DNA from: Neodothiora populina
Lineage: Eukaryota
Assembly (NCBI RefSeq): GCF_041146345.1
Contig: NW_027191410.1
Coordinates: 1 to 64,000 of the forward strand
Reading direction: 5' to 3'
DNA: 64,000 nucleotides
Shown: positions 70-14,226 of the stretch, one piece after another
Layout: each line of letters begins with the position of its first letter
Position numbering within the stretch: the stretch's first letter is position 1
Translations under genes and position numbers: made by a program
Notes under the pieces: generated by a model
What the model was told of the DNA's origin: nothing
Seen by the model: only the letters and a program-made list of their open reading frames with translations
The model's database searches: none

Positions 70-1227
70 CTAGTTTACAAGTAATATGACACTGCCGAGC
101 TGTCTGGCCAGGTCTTGCTTCTCCACATCGTGCGTGTCTTCGACCTCTCCCCACATGTTGGTCTGCCAAGTCACCTCAACAGTGCTGGCCTCGGCTGCCT
201 GGGCGATGCCGAATCTCTCTGCACCCTGCTGCGTGCTCTGGAGATGCTTGAATTCCTCACTCCACTCGACCAACAGGCGGATGGCGACCAGGAGACTCTT
301 GCTGGCCAGCACACCTCTCTCGAGCGCGGCTAGCTCAAAGGCGGGCAGTCCCGAGATCCACCCGCGGATGACATTCTGCGTCATCTGTGGCTGCGGTGTC
401 GGCAAAATACTGTCCTCGCCCAAGACCGGGTGGATCTCGCAGCCGGGAAAGATGTGTGTAGTGAGGTACGCGATAATCGGCTCTGCGACGTCCTTTTGTT
501 TCTGGCGCAGGCTTGGGGCGTCCTTGTCCTGCTTGGAGTCATGAATGCTGCTTTCCGGTGCCCAGCATAATAAAGTATCCGTCCTTAAGTAGCGCAAAAG
601 CATAGCAGACAGAGCATCTCTGATCCCAGTCTTGCCCTCGCCGTCCTCTACCGCGATATCGATGGCTCGTGATGTGAGCGAGGTCAGAGGAATATAGTGG
701 TTCTTCAGCGCCTGGTGTGCGCTGACTAGAAGGTCCCATTCCAGGGCGATTGCGGCTGCGAGTGCGCGCTTGCTCGGTGGTAGAGTCAGAACCTGCTTCG
801 ATGCTAGTCGGACGGGCCTACTATCAAGCATGACCCGGAGACCCTCTGCATAGTTCTTGATTAGCCCGCTAGTCTGTCAAGCAACAGAACAAAGGCTAAA
901 CCGACCTGGTGTTTCTTGCACATCAACCTGCTTCCAGAATCTCTTTCTTAAGGCCGAGGAGGGCTTCTTGGGATCAACTCGCAGCTCTTTTCCCTTCTGT
1001 AGCATTTCCATCTGCTTGCGCTTGCGCGCGAGCTTCTCCTCGGCAGAGTTCTTCGGCGGCTGCGGCGGTGGTCCAGGCACTGTCGGGTGAGGCACGGGAG
1101 TCGCTGTCCTCGAGGGGGAGTTGTGTAGCTGACGGTAGGCGCAGAGTGTGGACCTCGGGGGTTGTGCGCATATGCGGCGCGCACCCAATGAAGAGGCTGA
1201 CCATGTTGGACGCAGTATTCGCTCCAT
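70..1227 (-). CDS. ATP12: Mitochondrial F1-ATPase assembly chaperone Atp12 (2 exons, intron 846-905)
   Basis: Presequence-like N-terminus; LRKRFWKQVDV, LDSRPVR, IALEWD, PLTSL, LRYLRTDTL and Q..MWGEVEDTHDV motifs. A GT..CTAAT..CAG intron joins ORFs 877-1227 and 70-831 in frame. Confidence 0.95.
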
Positions 1228-8155: not shown

Positions 8156-8923
8156 ATGGACAATCCCGCTTTCCATGCACTGCTTCTGTTGTCCGACTCG
8201 GCGCTTCCTTTGGGATCTTTCGCATTCAGTAGTGGGCTAGAGTCATATCTCGCTCATCACGGTCTCAATCAGACTGCCACTCGGGCGGCCTCGGCGCTCA
8301 CTGCTCCACCCGCACAGTCCTTGGATACTTTCATAGATCTCTCACTACGGAATCTGGCTTCTACTTCCCTACCCTATGTGTTGGACGCTTTTCATCACCC
8401 GGACCACTTGCCACACTTAGACAATGACATGGACGCGAGTACGCCATGCACCGTCGCTCGCAGGGCCAGTATTGCTCAGGGCAAAGCGCTTGTGCAGCTG
8501 TGGGAGCGCGCACTCGCGCAGTCTGCCATGACTTCCTCCCCTGGCTTGCCGGCGTTGAGCACCTTCATCACAGGCTTGAAATATGGACGCAGGGATGCCG
8601 ATGGCTTATTTGCGCAGAATGCACATTTCGCGCCCTTGTTCGGTGTCGTCTGCGCTGCACTTGCACTGTCGGCCCAGGAAACCTCTTACCTCTTTTTACT
8701 CAATCACGCAAAGGCTATCCTCTCCGCGGCGGTCAGGGCGAGCGTGATGGGTCCTTACCAATCACATGCCATGCTTGCAAGCGAGTCCCTGCAAGCAAAG
8801 ATCAAGACCTGCATGCGGAGAGAAGACGGCAAGTCAGTAGACTATGCTGGATTGACCGTCCCACCCATGGATCTCTGGATCGGAAGGCATGAACTCCTCT
8901 ACTCGCGAATTTTCAACTCGTGA
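8156..8923 (+). CDS. ureF: Urease accessory protein UreF
   Basis: LLLLSDSALPLGSFAFSSGLESY, ARRASIAQG, HFAPLFG and C-terminal HELLYSRIFNS motifs. Start codon uncertain. Confidence 0.92.
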   Translation: MDNPAFHALLLLSDSALPLGSFAFSSGLESYLAHHGLNQTATRAASALTAPPAQSLDTFIDLSLRNLASTSLPYVLDAFHHPDHLPHLDNDMDASTPCTVARRASIAQGKALVQLWERALAQSAMTSSPGLPALSTFITGLKYGRRDADGLFAQNAHFAPLFGVVCAALALSAQETSYLFLLNHAKAILSAAVRASVMGPYQSHAMLASESLQAKIKTCMRREDGKSVDYAGLTVPPMDLWIGRHELLYSRIFNS

Positions 8924-9550
8924 GGTTTGTTCTGGGCCTCAGATGAGACCGAGTCAGCCTTGTCTCGAAATTCACTCCTAGAGAGTGTTGAGAAGGCTGC
9001 ATGGACTCGAAGCCTTGTGACAGACCTTCAAGGGGGCTGGTAGTCAAGACGCTCAACGTACATATAGCCAAGGTCATCCACCCTCCCTTAAGGAGAGTAA
9101 CTCAATCAATCTACCACCGAACCATCCCTATGTATCTATATATTTCCAAGAGAAAGAGCAGAGAAGGAAGACGGCAAGAGGCGTTCCATATCTCGATCCT
9201 TCCCGGCGTCTCTACTTTCTTACGCGTGTAGTGATGATTTCGTTTGAAACCACCACGAATGGAAATCAGTTCGAAACCAGTGTGATAGTAGGTACTGAAC
9301 AACGTATGAATCGCTCGCGAGCAATAGGTCTGCTCGTAGCCAAAGCTATTATTCGTTGTCCTATTGCTATGTTACTGGCGACTCAGGGTCCAGGTTGGGT
9401 AGCTGCAGTGACGATCACGTGGTTGGCAAGATCCACCAGCTAAAGTGACAACAACTCTGGTTGCTACGCTTCGAGGCCATCCATTCTGTCACTCAGTCAA
9501 GCAAAAGTACCGGTAGTGCACAAGCTGCCGCATTTGTTTGGGTTCAAGAG

Positions 9551-11779
9551 ATGGGTAAGTTGACCGAGGCTTTCTGTCCTGATTGTTGTCCCTTGTGCAT
9601 ACTCAGCTCCAAGTGCTCTTCATGGTAGTTGATGGCAGGCGAGGAGGAACAATGAGGTCTTCACGACTGAGCAAGAAAAAAGATGGTCGAAGGAAACGGG
9701 AGGCTGACATGAGCTCTCACGCCAGGCAAGGCCTATTCGGAAGAGTCGCGCAACCAGGTCAAGCAACTCCTGCAGCAAGATGTGGGCGAAGACGAAATCG
9801 AGAAGCAGACGGGAGTGTCTGACCGCACCATCAGGCGGTGGAAGGTGCGCTGCATTCGTCCGACCCACATAGGCATACTGTACCGTCAGCCGGACGGGGA
9901 ACAACGATAAGCTCACGACTTTTTTCTTTTCTGTACAGCTCGAACTGGAACGCTATGGCCGCATCGGAAAACCACCGGAGAGCCGCACGGGTAGGCACAG
10001 AGTGATGAACAAGGAGGTCGAGCAGGCCCTGTTCGACCATGTCGCCCAGAAACCCGATCTATCCGTCGATGACATGCTGTGGTGGCTTTACGACAACTAC
10101 AAACTTGTCGTCGGCACGAGAACCATCAGGCGCGCATTCGAGCGTCGCAACACATCGCACAAGAAGTTCCGCAGCCAAGCTCATGCGCAGGGACACGCCA
10201 GCGTCAGCCGCGACGACAGCGGCAGGCAGGAGGAGGGTGGATACGGCCACGATGACATCTGCAGAGCAGAGAGCGGCGACGGCAACGGTGGGAGGGACGG
10301 CCCTCATGGTGGCAATGATGACGACGATGCAAATCACGATGATCATGCGAACATGGACATGGACTTAGACATGGGCATCGGAATCGACATGGACAACAGA
10401 CACTCGAGACCAGACAGAGACTCGGGCTCCCTTGCCCTTGCTCTGGCTCTGGCCCCAGACTCTGAATCTGTTGCGATTGCAGATGCGGCGCAACACCACA
10501 GAGACGCACCCATGTCTGCACCGCCCATGGCTGCGCCCGAGCGGCACGGCATGGTTCAGTCGAATGGTCCAGTCGTGTCTGCGGCTCAGTCACACGCTCA
10601 CTCGATGCCCCGGGAGCTGGGGCAAGAGACGCAGACGAATCCGAATGCTACAGCTACTTACCAGAGCCCGTATGCGCCCATGGTCCCCACGATGAGCAAC
10701 AATATCAACAACAATTCCAGCCACGCCATGGTCGCGAACTCGTCCGACATAAGCCCCGAGTTGGCTCGCGCACTTGGACGTCTCGCCCACTCGTCCAACG
10801 CGGCTGCCAGCTCCAGTCCCAACGCCAACATCCATCCGGACCTGATGGCAGCTGAGGAGATGGATCTCTCGGAAGACGAAGAGACGCTCCAACTCCAGCT
10901 GCAGCAGATAGCGCTGCAAAAGCGTGAGCTGGAGCTCAAGCTGAAGATGAGAAGGCTGCAACGCGCGCGTCGCTCTCCGTACACCCCGAATGCGTCCATG
11001 GCGCCAGCAGATCACTCCTTCATCTCTGACATGGCCGTGACCCCAAGCGCGCCCGGCTTGCATCAATCAGTCATCGATCCGCAGCCCGCCAATAATTCCA
11101 ACCCAACCACGCCAAACGATGCCCTCGGCTCGGCCGTCAAGCACAGGGACTCGCGAAGCAAGAGCAAGGTCGAAGAAGCAAAAAGGAGGACAGAGGAAAG
11201 ACAAGAGCGCATGCTAAAGGATCTCGAGAGAAGGAGCCGGCGTCGCGAGCACCTCACCGCTGAGTGGGTCCAGAGCAGAGACGTCTGGGCTAAAGGCCCT
11301 GAAAAGCTCCTCGTCGAGCTGATGCACCACCACTCGACCTACGCATACAACCAGAACTCTCTCGATACCTTTGAGGCCATCTTCCAGGCTCTCTATCAGC
11401 TCGTCGATCCGAATGATTGGTACCCGCCCGTTCATGATGACCTGTTGCGCGAACGCACCCGTCGCAAGATGAGCCAATTGCGCAGCAAGATGGTCAAGAG
11501 CGGAGAGATTGCCAGTCGCGGCGAAGGCTACGGAGGCTGGACGAGAGCCGATCCTTTTGCTGCTGCTCACGATGGTTCGTCGAGCCAACAACACCAACAC
11601 CAACACCAACCCCAAGACGAAGTTCAGTCCATGCCTGGCATGCCCATCGACATGTCTGCGTTAGACGAACACACTGAAGACGACGCTGGTGGAGGTGGTG
11701 GTGATGGCTCAGACGACGCCGTGCTCGCCAGAGATGCCATGATGCAGACGTCGCATTCGCAACAGCAACAGCAACAGCA

Positions 11780-11812
<33 letters not shown>

Positions 11813-11948
11813 TCACGATCATCATCAAGATATGCTTTCGTCTCATACTCAGCATCAACATCAACAGCAGATGCAGCAGCAGCAGCAGCATCAGCACCAT
11901 GATCCTCAGCTGTACAGCCAGGCCATGCATGACCCAGGGTTTGATTAA
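9551..11948 (+). CDS. Putative DNA-binding protein with N-terminal IS630/Tc1-transposase-derived double HTH, coiled coils and Gln/His-rich tail; join(9551-9554,9726-9844,9939-11948), ~710 aa
   Basis: ATGG|GTAAGT..GCTGAC..CAG and AAG|GTGCGC..GCTCAC..CAG introns give the in-frame N-terminus MGKAYSEESRNQVKQLLQQDVGEDEIEKQTGVSDRTIRRWKLELERYGRIGKPPESRTGRHRVMNKEVEQALFDHVAQKPDLSVDDMLWWLYDNYKLVVGTRTIRRAFERRNTSHKK; long stop-free exon 3. Confidence 0.8.
11760..11810 (+). repeat. CAG/CAA poly-Gln tract
   Basis: Run of CAA/CAG codons inside the 9551-11948 gene. Confidence 0.9.
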
Positions 11949-12535
11949 GACGACCTTGTTCATCCCGTCGGTCAGACCATGTAGCATGAACCAGCATCCT
12001 GCATACAGTACTTCGATGCTCATGTGCTGTGTCATCTTACAACTATCGTTTATTGATTAGTCGGTTATGTTATAGCAATACATATCTCTATCTTTGATGA
12101 ATCTGCTTCGAGATATAATGCTATCTATTGACGTGCAGAGTTCCGCCTCGAATAATGAAGGAAGTTTTATAATAGGTCCTTTCGAGGCTTTCACCGACAG
12201 CCTTGGAGTGCAGATTGTTCCAGCTCACTGTCATTGGCAGGATCGTCGCAGAGGCTCAGATGAGAAGTTCTTGGTGCGACGTTTACTAGCAAAGTGCGAT
12301 GCTAGTGGCTGCGCTTTTGTTGTAGCATTCTATAAAGTGCAACAGAGCCGGCTTTGGTCAGTTGCCATTTTAGAACCGCTCACGCAGACATGCTCTAGTC
12401 TGTCCAAATTGAACCTGCACTGGCACCGTCCTCCGGTGCTTAATAAGTGGCGAATTAGTAGAGCAAGACAGCTGCTGTATCGCAGCCGCAAACTCAATTC
12501 CTGATTTTTGGAGTTATTTGTTTGATCGACACCAA

Positions 12536-13783
12536 TCAAGCTGATGCTCGCTCAGCCGACTCTTTGGGTTTCTGAAATCGGCCCTGCATCCAGCATCGGT
12601 ACATTTTCAGTTTTCTCTGTCGGTTCACGAGCATACGGCGGTCCACACCAAGAGCTGTGATGTCGAAAGCAGGGGCTCTTTCTTCAGGGGACGATGTGTC
12701 TGCAAGCTGGGTGGTCTCAAGCTTCTCGGTTATTCCATCAGCTGCATCGCCTGTACCGTCCTGGGGCAGTGAGTTCGGTGGCATGCGACCAGACCAGATA
12801 TCTTGGAGTTCCTCTTGCTCGAAAAAGTAGACTCTAGTGCCGTCTCCACGAATGTAAAAGTTCTCCTCGAGATATCGACCTTTCTTGAAGCGCACCTGTG
12901 CCAGGTCACCACGGCCGTAGTCCCTGAATAAGACGACGCCGCCAGGCTTCAGGACATTGTAGACGTTGCGGACAGCCTGCATCCATTGTGTAGGTTGCAG
13001 GGCGGAGAAGATGAAGATCATGATGACAACGTCGACGCTCTCGGGTTTCACTCCAGGTGGCAGCGCGTTCTCCCCCTTACCCGCCACATCCCACACGTCG
13101 GCGCGCAGAACGTCCCCGTCGTATGCCTCGTTGGATCTGATAACCTCGATTGCCTTTTTCGAATAGTCGCAAGCGTGGATCCTCAAGTCTTTGTTCTGAT
13201 TGTTGGCAAGGACGGGGAAAGCGGTATTCCCCGCGCCAGCACCGACCTCGAGCAGAACAGCAGGACCGTACTCTGGCTGCGTGACCTGACCGAGAACGGG
13301 AAACTCCTGCACCAGCCACTTGCGATCCTTGAAGAAGTTGGCGCGGTTGTTGCTGTAGAATTTATCCCAAAACTTCTCGGGGTGCTCGTTGAAGCGCTTC
13401 TTGTCGAAGTCCGAGACGGGGGCGTTCCGTTGCACCTCTGCCTGCTCTTTGATGAATTCCTTGTATGCGTCGTCGACCTCGACGTGGTCCCAGGCGTTAT
13501 ATGCGAAGATGTCGTCGCCTTCTTCCAGCAGACGAGAGCCGAATTGGAAAGGGTCGGTCCGCTTCTGGTCATTCATCTTGGAGGCTTCGGTGGCGGGATT
13601 GCGCTTGGGCATGATGGCTGCGGGAACGCCGTAGGCTGGTGTTCCATGCGTGTCTTCGGCCGAGTCGGTGGGAGGAGGTGACGCGGGAGTCGGCTCGACG
13701 GTGACATACTGGCGCATGTGTTCCATGCCTTTGGAGAGCTGCGCCTTGGGCGTTTTCGTGGTGTTTTTGTCTGACCCCTCCAT
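12536..13783 (-). CDS. TRM140: tRNA N3-methylcytidine methyltransferase (Trm140/Abp140, METTL2-like)
   Basis: FGSRLL, NAWDHVE, FWDKFY..NFFKDRKWL..EFP, LEVGAGAGN, FRDYGRGDLAQVRF, YIRGDGTRVYFF and DRRMLVNR motifs. Confidence 0.95.
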   Translation of the reverse strand: MEGSDKNTTKTPKAQLSKGMEHMRQYVTVEPTPASPPPTDSAEDTHGTPAYGVPAAIMPKRNPATEASKMNDQKRTDPFQFGSRLLEEGDDIFAYNAWDHVEVDDAYKEFIKEQAEVQRNAPVSDFDKKRFNEHPEKFWDKFYSNNRANFFKDRKWLVQEFPVLGQVTQPEYGPAVLLEVGAGAGNTAFPVLANNQNKDLRIHACDYSKKAIEVIRSNEAYDGDVLRADVWDVAGKGENALPPGVKPESVDVVIMIFIFSALQPTQWMQAVRNVYNVLKPGGVVLFRDYGRGDLAQVRFKKGRYLEENFYIRGDGTRVYFFEQEELQDIWSGRMPPNSLPQDGTGDAADGITEKLETTQLADTSSPEERAPAFDITALGVDRRMLVNRQRKLKMYRCWMQGRFQKPKESAERASA

Positions 13784-14226
13784 GTCTCTTTCCTCTATTT
13801 ATAAATATCTTTCGTCGACTACACTTCTTCGAAGGAGAACTGATTTCCTGTTTATCCCTCCAGACAGACCCTTGAAGATCTGCTTTTATCAAAATCGACG
13901 GTTCGGCCCGCTGCCCGGGTTTTTGTGTCGCGTCGGCCTTTGTTCGACTCTAAAAAGAATCCCCGATCTCCTCCGCAATTCATCAGCGTCATTGACTTTA
14001 TTTATACCTCATTGTCTACATCAGGTACTCGTCGTTGATGGCACTCGTTGTGAATCCCGGGAAAGATGGTTTGAATCGAAATCTGCTGAAGAAACGACTC
14101 GCTCATCTTGATCCATCAGTCACACTCTCTTGAGATAATATCGGATTGTTTACAGTCACTGTTTACTCTCCATCACCATCACCACCACCACCACCTCCTC
14201 GGTTTCTTCCATAACAGACAATAAGC

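What the first reader, a model, noticed from the sequence alone, without database searches (positions are those of the whole stretch)
9551..11948. Candidate domesticated IS630/Tc1 transposase DNA-binding domain recruited into a spliced, Gln-rich host regulator
Seen: a 4-nt first exon (ATGG|GTAAGT) and a 119-nt second exon, both missed by the ORF track, splice in frame onto the 648-aa ORF. The resulting ~120-aa N-terminus reads HTH1 (..EIEKQTGVSDRTIRRWK), a GRPR-like linker (RTGRHRVM) and HTH2 (QALFDHVAQKPDLSVDDMLWWLYDNYKLVVGTRTIRRAFERRNTSHKK). Known: this is the bipartite DNA-binding layout of IS630/Tc1-type transposases, which normally runs directly into a DDE domain. Seen: no DDE motif follows, no TIRs were noticed, and there are no stops or frameshifts. 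Instead come low-complexity spacers, a leucine-rich coiled coil (ETLQLQLQQIALQKRELELKLKMRRL), a predicted helical domain (~11150-11510) and poly-Q/H tracts. Inference: a transposon-derived, transcription-factor-like gene under host selection, possibly binding dispersed TIR-derived sites. This would be analogous to PAX or CENP-B domestications, in a family I do not recognise as described.
Basis: partly seen in the sequence, partly recalled or inferred. Interest (0 to 1): 0.8.

Follow-up and report, generated by a model that had tools for sequence, protein, structure and literature searches.

The report
Fungal gene with transposase-derived DNA-binding domain
An intact, spliced fungal gene, conserved across the Dothideomycetes, starts with the two-part DNA-binding module of a Tc1/IS630-type transposase but has no DNA-cutting domain, so it looks like a jumping-gene part recruited into a host DNA-binding protein whose job is still untested.

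Summary
Exons 9551-9554, 9726-9844 and 9939-11948 join into a 710-aa ORF with one terminal stop. No RNA data could be obtained. The model rests on comparison: 19 annotated homologues start MG[KR]AY, 15 of 29 related loci have that start unspliced, and the two closest loci share both introns. Residues 1-~112 are a PAI-linker-RED bipartite helix-turn-helix. Its nearest relatives outside the family are fungal Tc1-like/IS630 (DDE_3) transposases (hhalign 99.4%, E 2e-21, DNA-binding domain only). The AlphaFold model (pLDDT 91) best matches Pax6/Pax5 and the Tc3, SETMAR and Mos1 DNA-binding domains. There is no DDE domain, no terminal inverted repeats, and GC content matches the housekeeping neighbours. 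The family was found only in Dothideomycetes. It forms one group in the domain tree, shows partly conserved microsynteny and is under strong purifying selection (median dN/dS 0.01-0.07). The predicted ureF/TRM140 synteny fails. Copy number in this genome is untested. Transcription-factor function and binding to transposon ends remain inference. I found no paper on this family. It is a new fungal member of the known class of genes built on a co-opted Tc1/mariner DNA-binding module.

The parts
9551..9554 (+). Exon 1: a 4-nt micro-exon (ATG plus the first base of codon 2), followed by donor GTAAGT.
   Evidence: Sequence. L012 and L013 have the same ATGG|GT micro-exon. The start MG[KR]AY is contiguous with ATG in 15 of 29 testable loci. 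It is annotated as the N-terminus in 19 database proteins.
9555..9725 (+). Intron 1 (171 nt, phase 1): GTAAGT ... GCTGAC ... CAG.
   Evidence: Sequence. The exon-2 frame is closed upstream and has no ATG.
9726..9844 (+). Exon 2 (119 nt). It encodes residues 2-41, which is most of the PAI subdomain (first helix-turn-helix).
   Evidence: dN/dS for residues 3-69 has a median of 0.073 over 69 pairs.
9845..9938 (+). Intron 2 (94 nt, phase 0): GTGCGC ... CTCAC ... ACAG. It splits RRWK|LELER.
   Evidence: Sequence. L012, L013 and L014 have an intron at the same position; the other loci are contiguous here.
9939..11948 (+). Exon 3: residues 42-710 plus the stop codon TAA (11946-11948).
9957..10010 (+). 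Inter-subdomain linker (residues 48-65) with the GRHR motif in the column where the transposases have GRPR. It is nearly invariant in the family.
   Evidence: Alignments. The model shows a linker with lower pLDDT at residues 48-65.
10011..10145 (+). RED subdomain (second three-helix helix-turn-helix, residues 66-110).
   Evidence: Pfam HTH_32: E 2.8e-6, 28.2 bits, below the 33.7 cut-off. Model helices 66-78, 84-95 and 101-110. dN/dS median 0.014 over 85 pairs.
10146..10658 (+). Spacer rich in Asp, Gly, His and Ala (residues ~111-281). It is mostly specific to the window's lineage.
   Evidence: Low alignment occupancy. Composition. An 18-nt tandem repeat lies at 10351-10395.
10659..10679 (+). 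Conserved short motif YQSPYAP (residues 282-288).
   Evidence: Y, P and Y are invariant and S nearly invariant in A1. Position.
10851..10970 (+). Acidic patch plus a Leu/Gln-rich long helix (residues 346-385). It is a candidate coiled coil or dimerisation helix.
   Evidence: Conserved block. The equivalent residues 215-243 of P0015 are modelled as a single long helix with block-mean pLDDT 70-87. Dimerisation was not tested (tool unavailable).
11139..11522 (+). Conserved C-terminal domain (residues 442-569): a long basic helix, then a compact helical core with a beta-hairpin.
   Evidence: This is the most conserved block. dN/dS median 0.027 over 19 pairs. Block-mean pLDDT is 92-96 over about residues 320-400 of P0015. 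No Pfam or PDB sequence match. Only weak fold matches.
11523..11945 (+). Gln/His-rich low-complexity tail (residues 570-710), including a CAG array at 11759-11812.

Best explanation
This is a real three-exon host gene encoding a 710-aa protein. Its first ~112 residues are the bipartite (PAI-linker-RED, 'paired-like') DNA-binding module of a fungal Tc1-like/IS630-superfamily transposase. The catalytic DDE domain and the transposon ends are gone. The module is joined to family-specific parts: a conserved YQSPYAP motif, an acidic patch with a long Leu/Gln helix, a strongly conserved C-terminal helical domain and a Gln/His-rich tail.

Shown here: the gene structure (by comparison), the homology and fold of the DNA-binding domain, the loss of DDE and TIRs, one family spread over Dothideomycetes, and strong purifying selection.

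Inferred: the protein binds DNA sequence-specifically through the two helix-turn-helix subdomains and the GRHR linker. It probably pairs through the long helix. It then acts in the nucleus as a regulator (transcriptional or chromatin) through its C-terminal domain and Q-rich tail.
For: Gene model.
- The joined ORF has 710 codons and one stop.
- 19 database proteins start MG[KR]AY.
- The start is contiguous with ATG in 15 of 29 loci, and L012/L013 share the same micro-exon and second intron and give intact 575- and 573-aa ORFs.

Transposase origin of the DNA-binding domain.
- A profile of the N-terminus searched against 1.84 billion representatives gave 373 hits at E<=1e-3.
- I scanned 91 of the 150 listed hits against Pfam. 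Five carry DDE_3, none carries rve, and at least 32 carry HTH_32.
- Named relatives are 'Tc1-like transposase DDE domain-containing protein' of Paraphaeosphaeria minitans (several paralogues) and a truncated copy in Botryosphaeria dothidea.
- Pairwise: 34% identity over 93 gapless residues, E 2e-12, and 31% over 108, E 8e-21.
- hhalign, family against transposases: probability 99.4%, E 2e-21, 115 columns, DNA-binding domain only.
- Best NCBIfam model: IS630 transposase, E 2.9e-11, covering model positions 1-140 of 299.

Fold.
- The model has pLDDT 90.9 and two three-helix subdomains.
- Foldseek top hits are Pax6, Pax5, Tc3 and Prd. VIA-align top hits are Tc3, SETMAR, IstA and Mos1.
- The full-length model built from a family-only alignment shows the same architecture and top hits.
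- A widened profile hits Pax5/6/8, Prd and the Sleeping Beauty PAI and RED subdomains in the PDB.

Host-gene status.
- 109 homologues were found. All those named after fungi are Dothideomycetes.
- The family is one group in the domain tree (95/69; 92% of bootstrap trees), sister to the Botryosphaeria copy, with short branches.
- dN/dS between L012 and L013 is 0.038 overall, 0.018 for the DNA-binding domain and 0.0025 for the C-domain. Block medians are 0.073, 0.014 and 0.027.
- A BAH-PHD gene lies upstream in 11 of 17 loci and a shared gene lies downstream in 11 of 16.
- No TIRs. GC content is like the neighbours', and the neighbours are housekeeping genes.
Against: - There is no expression or splice evidence for this organism.
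- The window's genome is not held, so copy number there is unknown. Only the 64-kb window was shown to hold a single copy.
- The window's locus lacks the neighbourhood shared by relatives, and none of its own neighbours occurs beside any relative. It may therefore sit at a rearranged or secondary position.
- Pfam HTH_32 is below the gathering score for the window's protein (24.8-28.2 against 33.7).
- Family-only profiles find nothing in PDB sequences.
- The domain tree has 129 columns and only a midpoint root, and the family branch is not 'starred'.
- dS between the window and its nearest loci is saturated, so the selection estimates rest on relatives.
- DNA binding, dimerisation and regulatory function are not tested at all.
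Confidence: 0.78

Rival explanations
1. Transposon-control factor. The protein keeps the ancestral specificity for the ends of cognate Tc1-like elements. It acts mainly by occupying or silencing those elements, as a competitor or repressor of transposition, and is not a regulator of host genes.
For: The DNA-binding domain is closest to Tc1-like transposases that still occur in other Dothideomycetes. A passage read in PMC5751038 says Dothideomycetes have few DNA transposons. KRABINER, a host-transposase fusion, binds cognate mariner TIRs (abstract of 10.1101/2020.05.07.082677).
Against: The DNA-binding domain is almost invariant across orders. That fits a stable, conserved target better than fast-evolving transposon ends. 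No cognate element or TIR was found in the window or in the loci flanks. Nothing here tests binding.
Confidence: 0.15
2. Generic helix-turn-helix. The N-terminus is an ordinary homeodomain/Myb-like domain or an IS481/IS3-type HTH, and the resemblance to Tc1/IS630 is superficial.
Against: The nearest full-span relatives carry DDE_3 (5 of 91 scanned) and none carries rve. Among the transposase models, IS630 scores best. hhalign against Tc1-like transposases gives 99.4% and is collinear over 115 columns, including the GRPR/GRHR linker. Whole-domain structural matches are to Tc3, SETMAR, Mos1 and Pax.
Confidence: 0.05
3. Decaying or non-autonomous transposon remnant, or a mis-called pseudogene, and not a functional gene.
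For: The domain is transposase-like. Truncated transposase N-termini of 105-190 aa are common among the hits. The window's locus does not share the relatives' synteny.
Against: The gene has an intact 710-codon ORF with two canonical introns. Orthologues are intact in many species with dN/dS of 0.01-0.07. No TIRs were found. The C-terminal domain is conserved and unrelated to transposases. The setting is gene-dense and of normal GC content.
Confidence: 0.02

Closest known systems
Fungal Tc1-like / IS630-family transposases (Pfam DDE_3 PF13358; NCBIfam NF033545), e.g. 'Tc1-like transposase DDE domain-containing protein' of Paraphaeosphaeria minitans (P0216 cluster)
   Same: The N-terminal PAI-linker-RED DNA-binding module is collinear: 29-34% identity, hhalign 99.4%, and a GRPR-type linker motif in the same column.
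   Different: There is no DDE catalytic domain and there are no TIRs. The copies found sit in host-gene neighbourhoods and are spliced. The module is fused to a conserved, unrelated C-terminal region. The protein scores 43 bits against a 100-bit cut-off for NF033545, whereas the transposases score 162.
Drosophila genes built on a co-opted Tc1/mariner DNA-binding module (CG4570, cag, toy), Guseva et al. 2026, PMC13548663 (abstract, sections 7 and 20 read)
   Same: Only the transposase HTH module is retained. The genes form one group apart from the transposases, are under purifying selection (CG4570 dN/dS 0.124), show microsynteny and lack TIRs. These are the same criteria applied here.
   Different: Those are animal genes. 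This is an independent event in a fungal class, with a different fusion partner and a much larger protein. No expression data are available here.
Host-transposase fusion transcription factors ('transposase capture', e.g. KRABINER), Cosby et al. preprint 10.1101/2020.05.07.082677 (abstract read)
   Same: A transposase DNA-binding domain is joined to non-transposase regions to give a putative sequence-specific regulator.
   Different: The vertebrate cases fuse to known host domains such as KRAB, and binding and repression were shown experimentally. Here the partner domain has no known relative, the capture route is unknown and function is untested.
PAX paired domain (Pax6 6pax, Pax5 1k78, Prd 1pdn)
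   Same: These are the best Foldseek matches over the whole 115-residue bipartite domain (TM 0.61 and 0.52). A widened profile also hits them by sequence (E 6e-8 to 9e-6).
   Different: The family proteins gave no Pfam PAX hit. PAX proteins are metazoan and usually carry an octapeptide or homeodomain (recalled). The resemblance reflects the shared Tc1-type ancestry of the fold, not membership.
CENP-B / fission-yeast Abp1, Cbh1, Cbh2
   Same: These are fungal and animal host proteins that descend from IS630-Tc1-mariner-group transposases and bind DNA with a two-HTH N-terminus.

Membership tests
IS630/Tc1-mariner transposase | Bipartite N-terminal DNA-binding domain: two three-helix HTH subdomains (PAI and RED) | tested here: met
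   Model helices are 7-18, 23-30, 34-47, then linker, then 66-78, 84-95, 101-110. hhalign to Tc1-like transposases gives 99.4%. Top structural hits are Tc3, SETMAR, Mos1 and Pax.
IS630/Tc1-mariner transposase | GRPR-like (AT-hook-like) motif between the subdomains | tested here: met
   GRHR aligns in the GRPR column of 35 transposase-like N-termini. It is invariant in the family. The feature is described for ITm transposases in passages of PMC13469147.
IS630/Tc1-mariner transposase | DDE/DDD catalytic domain (Pfam DDE_3) | tested here: not met
   No DDE_3 hit in the window protein or in 5 homologues. hhalign aligns nothing beyond the DNA-binding domain. tblastn with 4 transposase-like proteins finds only the DNA-binding region in the window.
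IS630/Tc1-mariner transposase | Terminal inverted repeats (and a TA duplication) around the gene | tested here: not met
   The repeat finder shows no convincing bracketing pair. The best inverted match between the 500-bp flanks is 9 nt, E 0.73.
IS630/Tc1-mariner transposase | Curated model cut-off (NCBIfam NF033545, 100 bits) | tested here: not met
   Family members score 30.7-43.3 bits and cover only model positions 1-140. The fungal transposases P0216 and P0206 score 162 bits.
Pfam HTH_32 (PF13565) | Score at or above the gathering threshold (33.7 bits) | tested here: inconclusive
   The window protein scores 24.8-28.2 bits (E 3e-5 to 3e-6). Five homologues score 29.2-32.7. P0118 (39.8) and P0119 (33.8) pass.
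Domesticated transposase-derived host gene (criteria as used in PMC13548663, section 20) | Homology to a transposase, limited to one module | tested here: met
Domesticated transposase-derived host gene | Intact orthologues across species under purifying selection | tested here: met
   109 homologues. dN/dS is 0.038 between L012 and L013. Block medians are 0.073, 0.014 and 0.027 for pairs with 0.05<dS<1.
Domesticated transposase-derived host gene | Orthologues form one group apart from the transposases | tested here: met
   21 family rows lie on one side of a branch (95/69; 92% of 200 bootstrap trees). The root is midpoint only.
Domesticated transposase-derived host gene | Stable genomic position (microsynteny) | tested here: inconclusive
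   A shared upstream BAH-PHD gene is present in 11 of 17 loci and a shared downstream gene in 11 of 16. The window has neither, and its own neighbours are found beside none of the 31 loci.
Domesticated transposase-derived host gene | Single or low copy in the genome | not testable with these tools
   No genome is held for the window. There is one copy within the 64-kb window.
Domesticated transposase-derived host gene | Expressed and spliced as modelled | not testable with these tools
   No RNA run was listed.
PAX (paired box) transcription factors | Sequence membership in Pfam PAX (PF00292) | tested here: not met
   No PAX hit for the window protein or 5 homologues, even at E<=1-10. PAX hits appear only for some multi-HTH relatives and for the widened profile against the PDB.
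Sequence-specific transcription factor | Binds defined DNA sites and changes transcription | not testable with these tools
   Inference from domain architecture only.

The most novel reading that the evidence does not exclude
A transposase DNA-binding module was captured once, early in Dothideomycete evolution, and fused to a new C-terminal domain. It then became an essential, almost invariant class-specific regulator. Either it is a master transcription factor with a conserved regulon, or it is a guardian that recognises Tc1-like transposon ends and helps keep DNA transposons rare in this class. It would be a fungal counterpart of the PAX or KRABINER stories, arising independently.
Probability: 0.2. 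Interest if true: 0.75.

Novelty: new member of a known kind. Interest (0 to 1): 0.52.

Why it matters
Co-option of transposase DNA-binding modules into host regulators is well documented in animals (PAX, CG4570/cag, KRAB-transposase fusions). The fungal domestications named in the passages I read are K. lactis alpha3 (MULE-like) and Kat1 (hAT); CENP-B-like pogo derivatives are recalled.

This family is a Tc1-type, DNA-binding-module-only capture. It is conserved across an entire fungal class that includes major crop pathogens, black yeasts and rock fungi. Everywhere it is annotated it is a 'hypothetical protein'.

It offers a clean, testable case in three respects. The DNA-binding domain is almost invariant. 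The partner domain has no known relative. Related transposases still exist in sister lineages for comparing binding sites.

It also shows that a 4-nt first exon hides the true N-terminus from ORF-based gene calls. Most metagenome-derived models of this family start at internal methionines.

Tried and rejected
- RNA evidence: no RNA holder was listed for 9400-12100.
- Own genome: not held, so genome-wide copy number and dispersed TIR-like sites could not be examined.
- Complex prediction (homodimer of the helix plus C-domain) was not available. Dimerisation is untested.
- Family-only sequence profiles against the PDB gave nothing useful: A2 best E 0.14, a Trp-repressor-like protein, and A1 no hit at E<=1.
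- Word-indexed searches with the DNA-binding domain alone and with residues 205-405 of P0015 returned only family members. No donor of the C-terminal part was found. Remote relatives may be missed by this method.
- C-terminal domain fold:
  - The Atlas gave TM<=0.36.
  - Foldseek on the full model gave only weak rows, which may or may not concern this domain (MukE, histone H1 globular domain; E 0.4-1.2).
  - The helix-helix-helix-hairpin layout is compatible with a winged helix, but I do not assign it.
- Synteny with ureF and the methyltransferase: none in 31 loci.
- The methyltransferase fused in database model P0111 is not the window's neighbour.
- Rfam: no RNA family in 8900-12600.
- Literature: five full-text searches found no paper on this family or on six of its locus tags.
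- The top PDB row for the widened profile (8vd6, a designed repeat protein) is five short repeats of one helix pair and was ignored.
Full report
OBSERVATION

ATGG is followed by GTAAGT at 9555. A branch-like GCTGAC and the acceptor CAG end an intron at 9725. Exon 2 runs 9726-9844 (119 nt). A second intron (GTGCGC ... CTCAC ... ACAG) ends at 9938, and exon 3 runs to the TAA at 11946-11948. Joined in a script, the exons give 2133 nt, or 710 codons with one terminal stop.

The frame of exon 2 is closed just upstream and holds no ATG (ORF 9713-9910), so the conserved exon-2 peptide can only be translated from a spliced start. The '648-aa ORF' is exon 3 counted from its first Met. No RNA run could be listed, so the junctions rest on comparison.

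SUPPORT FOR THE GENE MODEL

A search with the exon-3 protein gave 109 proteins at E<=1e-3. Of these, 19 begin MG[KR]AY at residue 1, and two more carry the same peptide a few residues in. Most metagenome-derived models instead start at internal methionines.

A scan of metagenome contigs gave 31 related loci. In 15 of the 29 loci where the start can be read, ATG-GGN-AAR/AGR-GCN-TAY is contiguous. The two loci closest to the window, L012 and L013 (85-87% identity in exon 2 and 95% in the first 77 codons of exon 3), have the same ATGG|GT micro-exon. They also share the second intron at the same codon boundary, and they give intact ORFs of 575 and 573 aa. Other clades appear to have a 10-nt first exon (6 loci) or an ATG-only first exon (3 loci); this is read from the sequence and is inferred.

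WHAT THE N-TERMINUS IS

Pfam finds only HTH_32, below its gathering score. The window protein scores 24.8-28.2 bits against 33.7. Five full-length homologues score 29.2-32.7 bits, covering residues 36-107. Two divergent members pass the threshold.

A profile of the N-terminal 117 residues, run over 1.84 billion representatives, found 373 proteins at E<=1e-3. After the family's own fragments come proteins that match the whole span. I scanned 91 of the 150 listed against Pfam. Five have DDE_3, none has rve, and at least 32 have HTH_32. Many are 105-190-aa N-terminal pieces, several of which run into the first catalytic Asp.

The named relatives are 'Tc1-like transposase DDE domain-containing protein' of Paraphaeosphaeria minitans (several paralogues), a 149-aa truncated copy in Botryosphaeria dothidea, a JGI 'transposase' and a lichen-fungus protein. 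Pairwise comparisons give 34% identity over 93 gapless residues (E 2e-12) and 31% over 108 (E 8e-21). Profile-profile comparison of the family with six such transposases gives 99.4% probability and E 2e-21 over 115 columns, and nothing beyond the DNA-binding domain. NCBIfam ranks the IS630 transposase model first (E 2.9e-11, model positions 1-140 of 299), ahead of IS481 (3.2e-8). The fungal transposases themselves pass that model's cut-off.

FOLD

The AlphaFold model of residues 1-117 has pLDDT 90.9. It shows two three-helix subdomains joined by a less confident linker that carries GRHR, in the column where the transposases have GRPR. Foldseek ranks Pax6 (E 3.2e-4, TM 0.61, 115 columns), Pax5, the Tc3 bipartite domain and Prd first. 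Double homeodomains come at E 0.3-0.5.

That alignment was dominated by transposase rows. The full-length model made from family members only has the same six helices and the same top hits. A widened sequence profile hits Pax5/6/8, Prd and the Sleeping Beauty PAI and RED subdomains in the PDB. Family-only profiles hit nothing there.

NOT A TRANSPOSON

There is no DDE domain. No inverted repeat convincingly brackets the gene, and the best inverted match between the 500-bp flanks is 9 nt at E 0.73. The 64-kb window holds one copy. GC content is 0.54-0.61, like the neighbours'. The neighbours are housekeeping genes: Erv1/Alr, UreF, a SAM methyltransferase and a Coq10-like protein. The label TRM140 was not verified.

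A CONSERVED HOST GENE

All named fungal homologues are Dothideomycetes. They include Dothideales (Aureobasidium), Mycosphaerellales (Baudoinia), Cryomyces and an unplaced Dothideomycete; the orders of the remaining named genera were not looked up. Two entries labelled Quercus suber are probably fungal contaminants (my inference).

The family alignment shows near-invariance of the DNA-binding domain, a YQSPYAP motif, an acidic patch with a Leu/Gln helix and a ~130-residue C-terminal domain. dN/dS between L012 and L013 is 0.018 for the DNA-binding domain, 0.0025 for the C-domain and 0.038 overall. Over all pairs with 0.05<dS<1 the medians are 0.073 (69 pairs), 0.014 (85 pairs) and 0.027 (19 pairs). 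Between the window and its nearest loci dS is saturated; dN is 0.06-0.10 in the two domains against 0.44-0.80 in the spacers.

In a tree of 62 DNA-binding domains, the 21 family rows form one group (95/69; 92% of bootstrap trees). The group is sister to the Botryosphaeria copy (99/96) and lies among transposase domains, with much shorter branches. The root is midpoint only.

Related loci share a BAH-PHD gene upstream (11 of 17 loci with enough flank, reference included) and another gene downstream (11 of 16). Some loci are near-duplicates of each other.

RESULTS AGAINST THE READING

- The window has neither of these shared neighbours, and none of its own neighbours occurs beside any of the 31 loci.
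- Copy number in its genome could not be tested.

THE REST OF THE PROTEIN

The long helix (residues 215-243 of P0015, window 346-385) and the C-domain are confidently modelled. The C-domain consists of a long basic helix, three helices and a hairpin, with block-mean pLDDT 92-96 over its core. The spacers and tail are disordered.

The C-domain has no Pfam, PDB-sequence, Atlas or clear fold match. It was found only in this family. Its layout is compatible with a winged helix, but I leave it unassigned.

MECHANISM (INFERRED)

The PAI and RED subdomains and the GRHR linker bind a bipartite DNA site, as in Tc3, Mos1 and Pax. This is established knowledge for those proteins; passages of PMC13469147 describe the layout. 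The long helix may pair two molecules. The C-domain and the Q/H tail provide the effector function. Whether the targets are host promoters or relics of Tc1-like ends is open.

COMPARISON AND NOVELTY

The closest described kind is co-option of the Tc1/mariner DNA-binding module. Examples are CG4570, cag and toy in Drosophila (PMC13548663; abstract and sections 7 and 20 read) and host-transposase fusions such as KRABINER (preprint 10.1101/2020.05.07.082677, abstract).

The protein is not a transposase, because the defining DDE domain and TIRs were tested and are absent. It is not a PAX protein by sequence. Five full-text searches found no paper on this family or its locus tags. Database names are 'hypothetical protein' or 'Homeobox-like domain superfamily protein'.

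Verdict: a real, ordinary-looking but uncharacterised host gene, and a new fungal member of a known kind.

Noticed in passing
window 9551-9725; L012, L013, L002, L021-L023, L028, L030, L004, L005, L025 (start regions): The intron next to the start codon sits at different places in different clades of the same gene. There is none in 15 of 29 loci. It comes after ATGG in the window, L012 and L013. It appears to come after a 10-nt exon in 6 loci (two or more with an apparent GC donor) and after ATG alone in 3 loci. The last two classes are read from the sequence only.
   Followed up: partly
L003:1506-6044 (+) and L003:9382-10836 (+), and the equivalent flanks of L004, L012, L020-L022, L028, L029: In relatives the gene lies downstream of a ~1300-1600-aa BAH + PHD + zf-HC5HC2H chromatin-reader-like gene and upstream of a ~480-aa gene with no Pfam match. 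Neither is in the window.
   Followed up: partly
proteins P0219, P0220, and P0183, P0188, P0200, P0237, P0240, P0241, P0249, P0251, P0258: Other proteins carry the same kind of DNA-binding module without a DDE domain. One is joined to Hikeshi domains. One is joined to a linalool dehydratase/isomerase domain (Acrodontium crateriforme). Nine proteins of 440-862 aa have two or three paired-like modules in tandem (HTH_SB, HTH_32, Tc3_2 hits; PAX in four of them). They could be further captures or merged gene models.
   Followed up: no
protein P0111 (NCBI partial model, Oleoguttula sp.): This database model fuses a SAM methyltransferase to the first ~70 residues of this family. It is probably two neighbouring genes merged. 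Its methyltransferase is not the one beside the window's gene.
   Followed up: yes
window 10146-10658 and 11523-11945: The window's protein (710 aa) is 110-220 aa longer than the annotated full-length relatives (about 490-600 aa). The extra length comes from an Asp/Gly/His-rich spacer with an 18-nt tandem repeat (10351-10395) and from long Gln/His runs with a CAG array (11759-11812).
   Followed up: partly
window 12536-13798 (-): The downstream neighbour matches only generic SAM-methyltransferase Pfam families (Methyltransf_12/25/11/23).
   Followed up: partly
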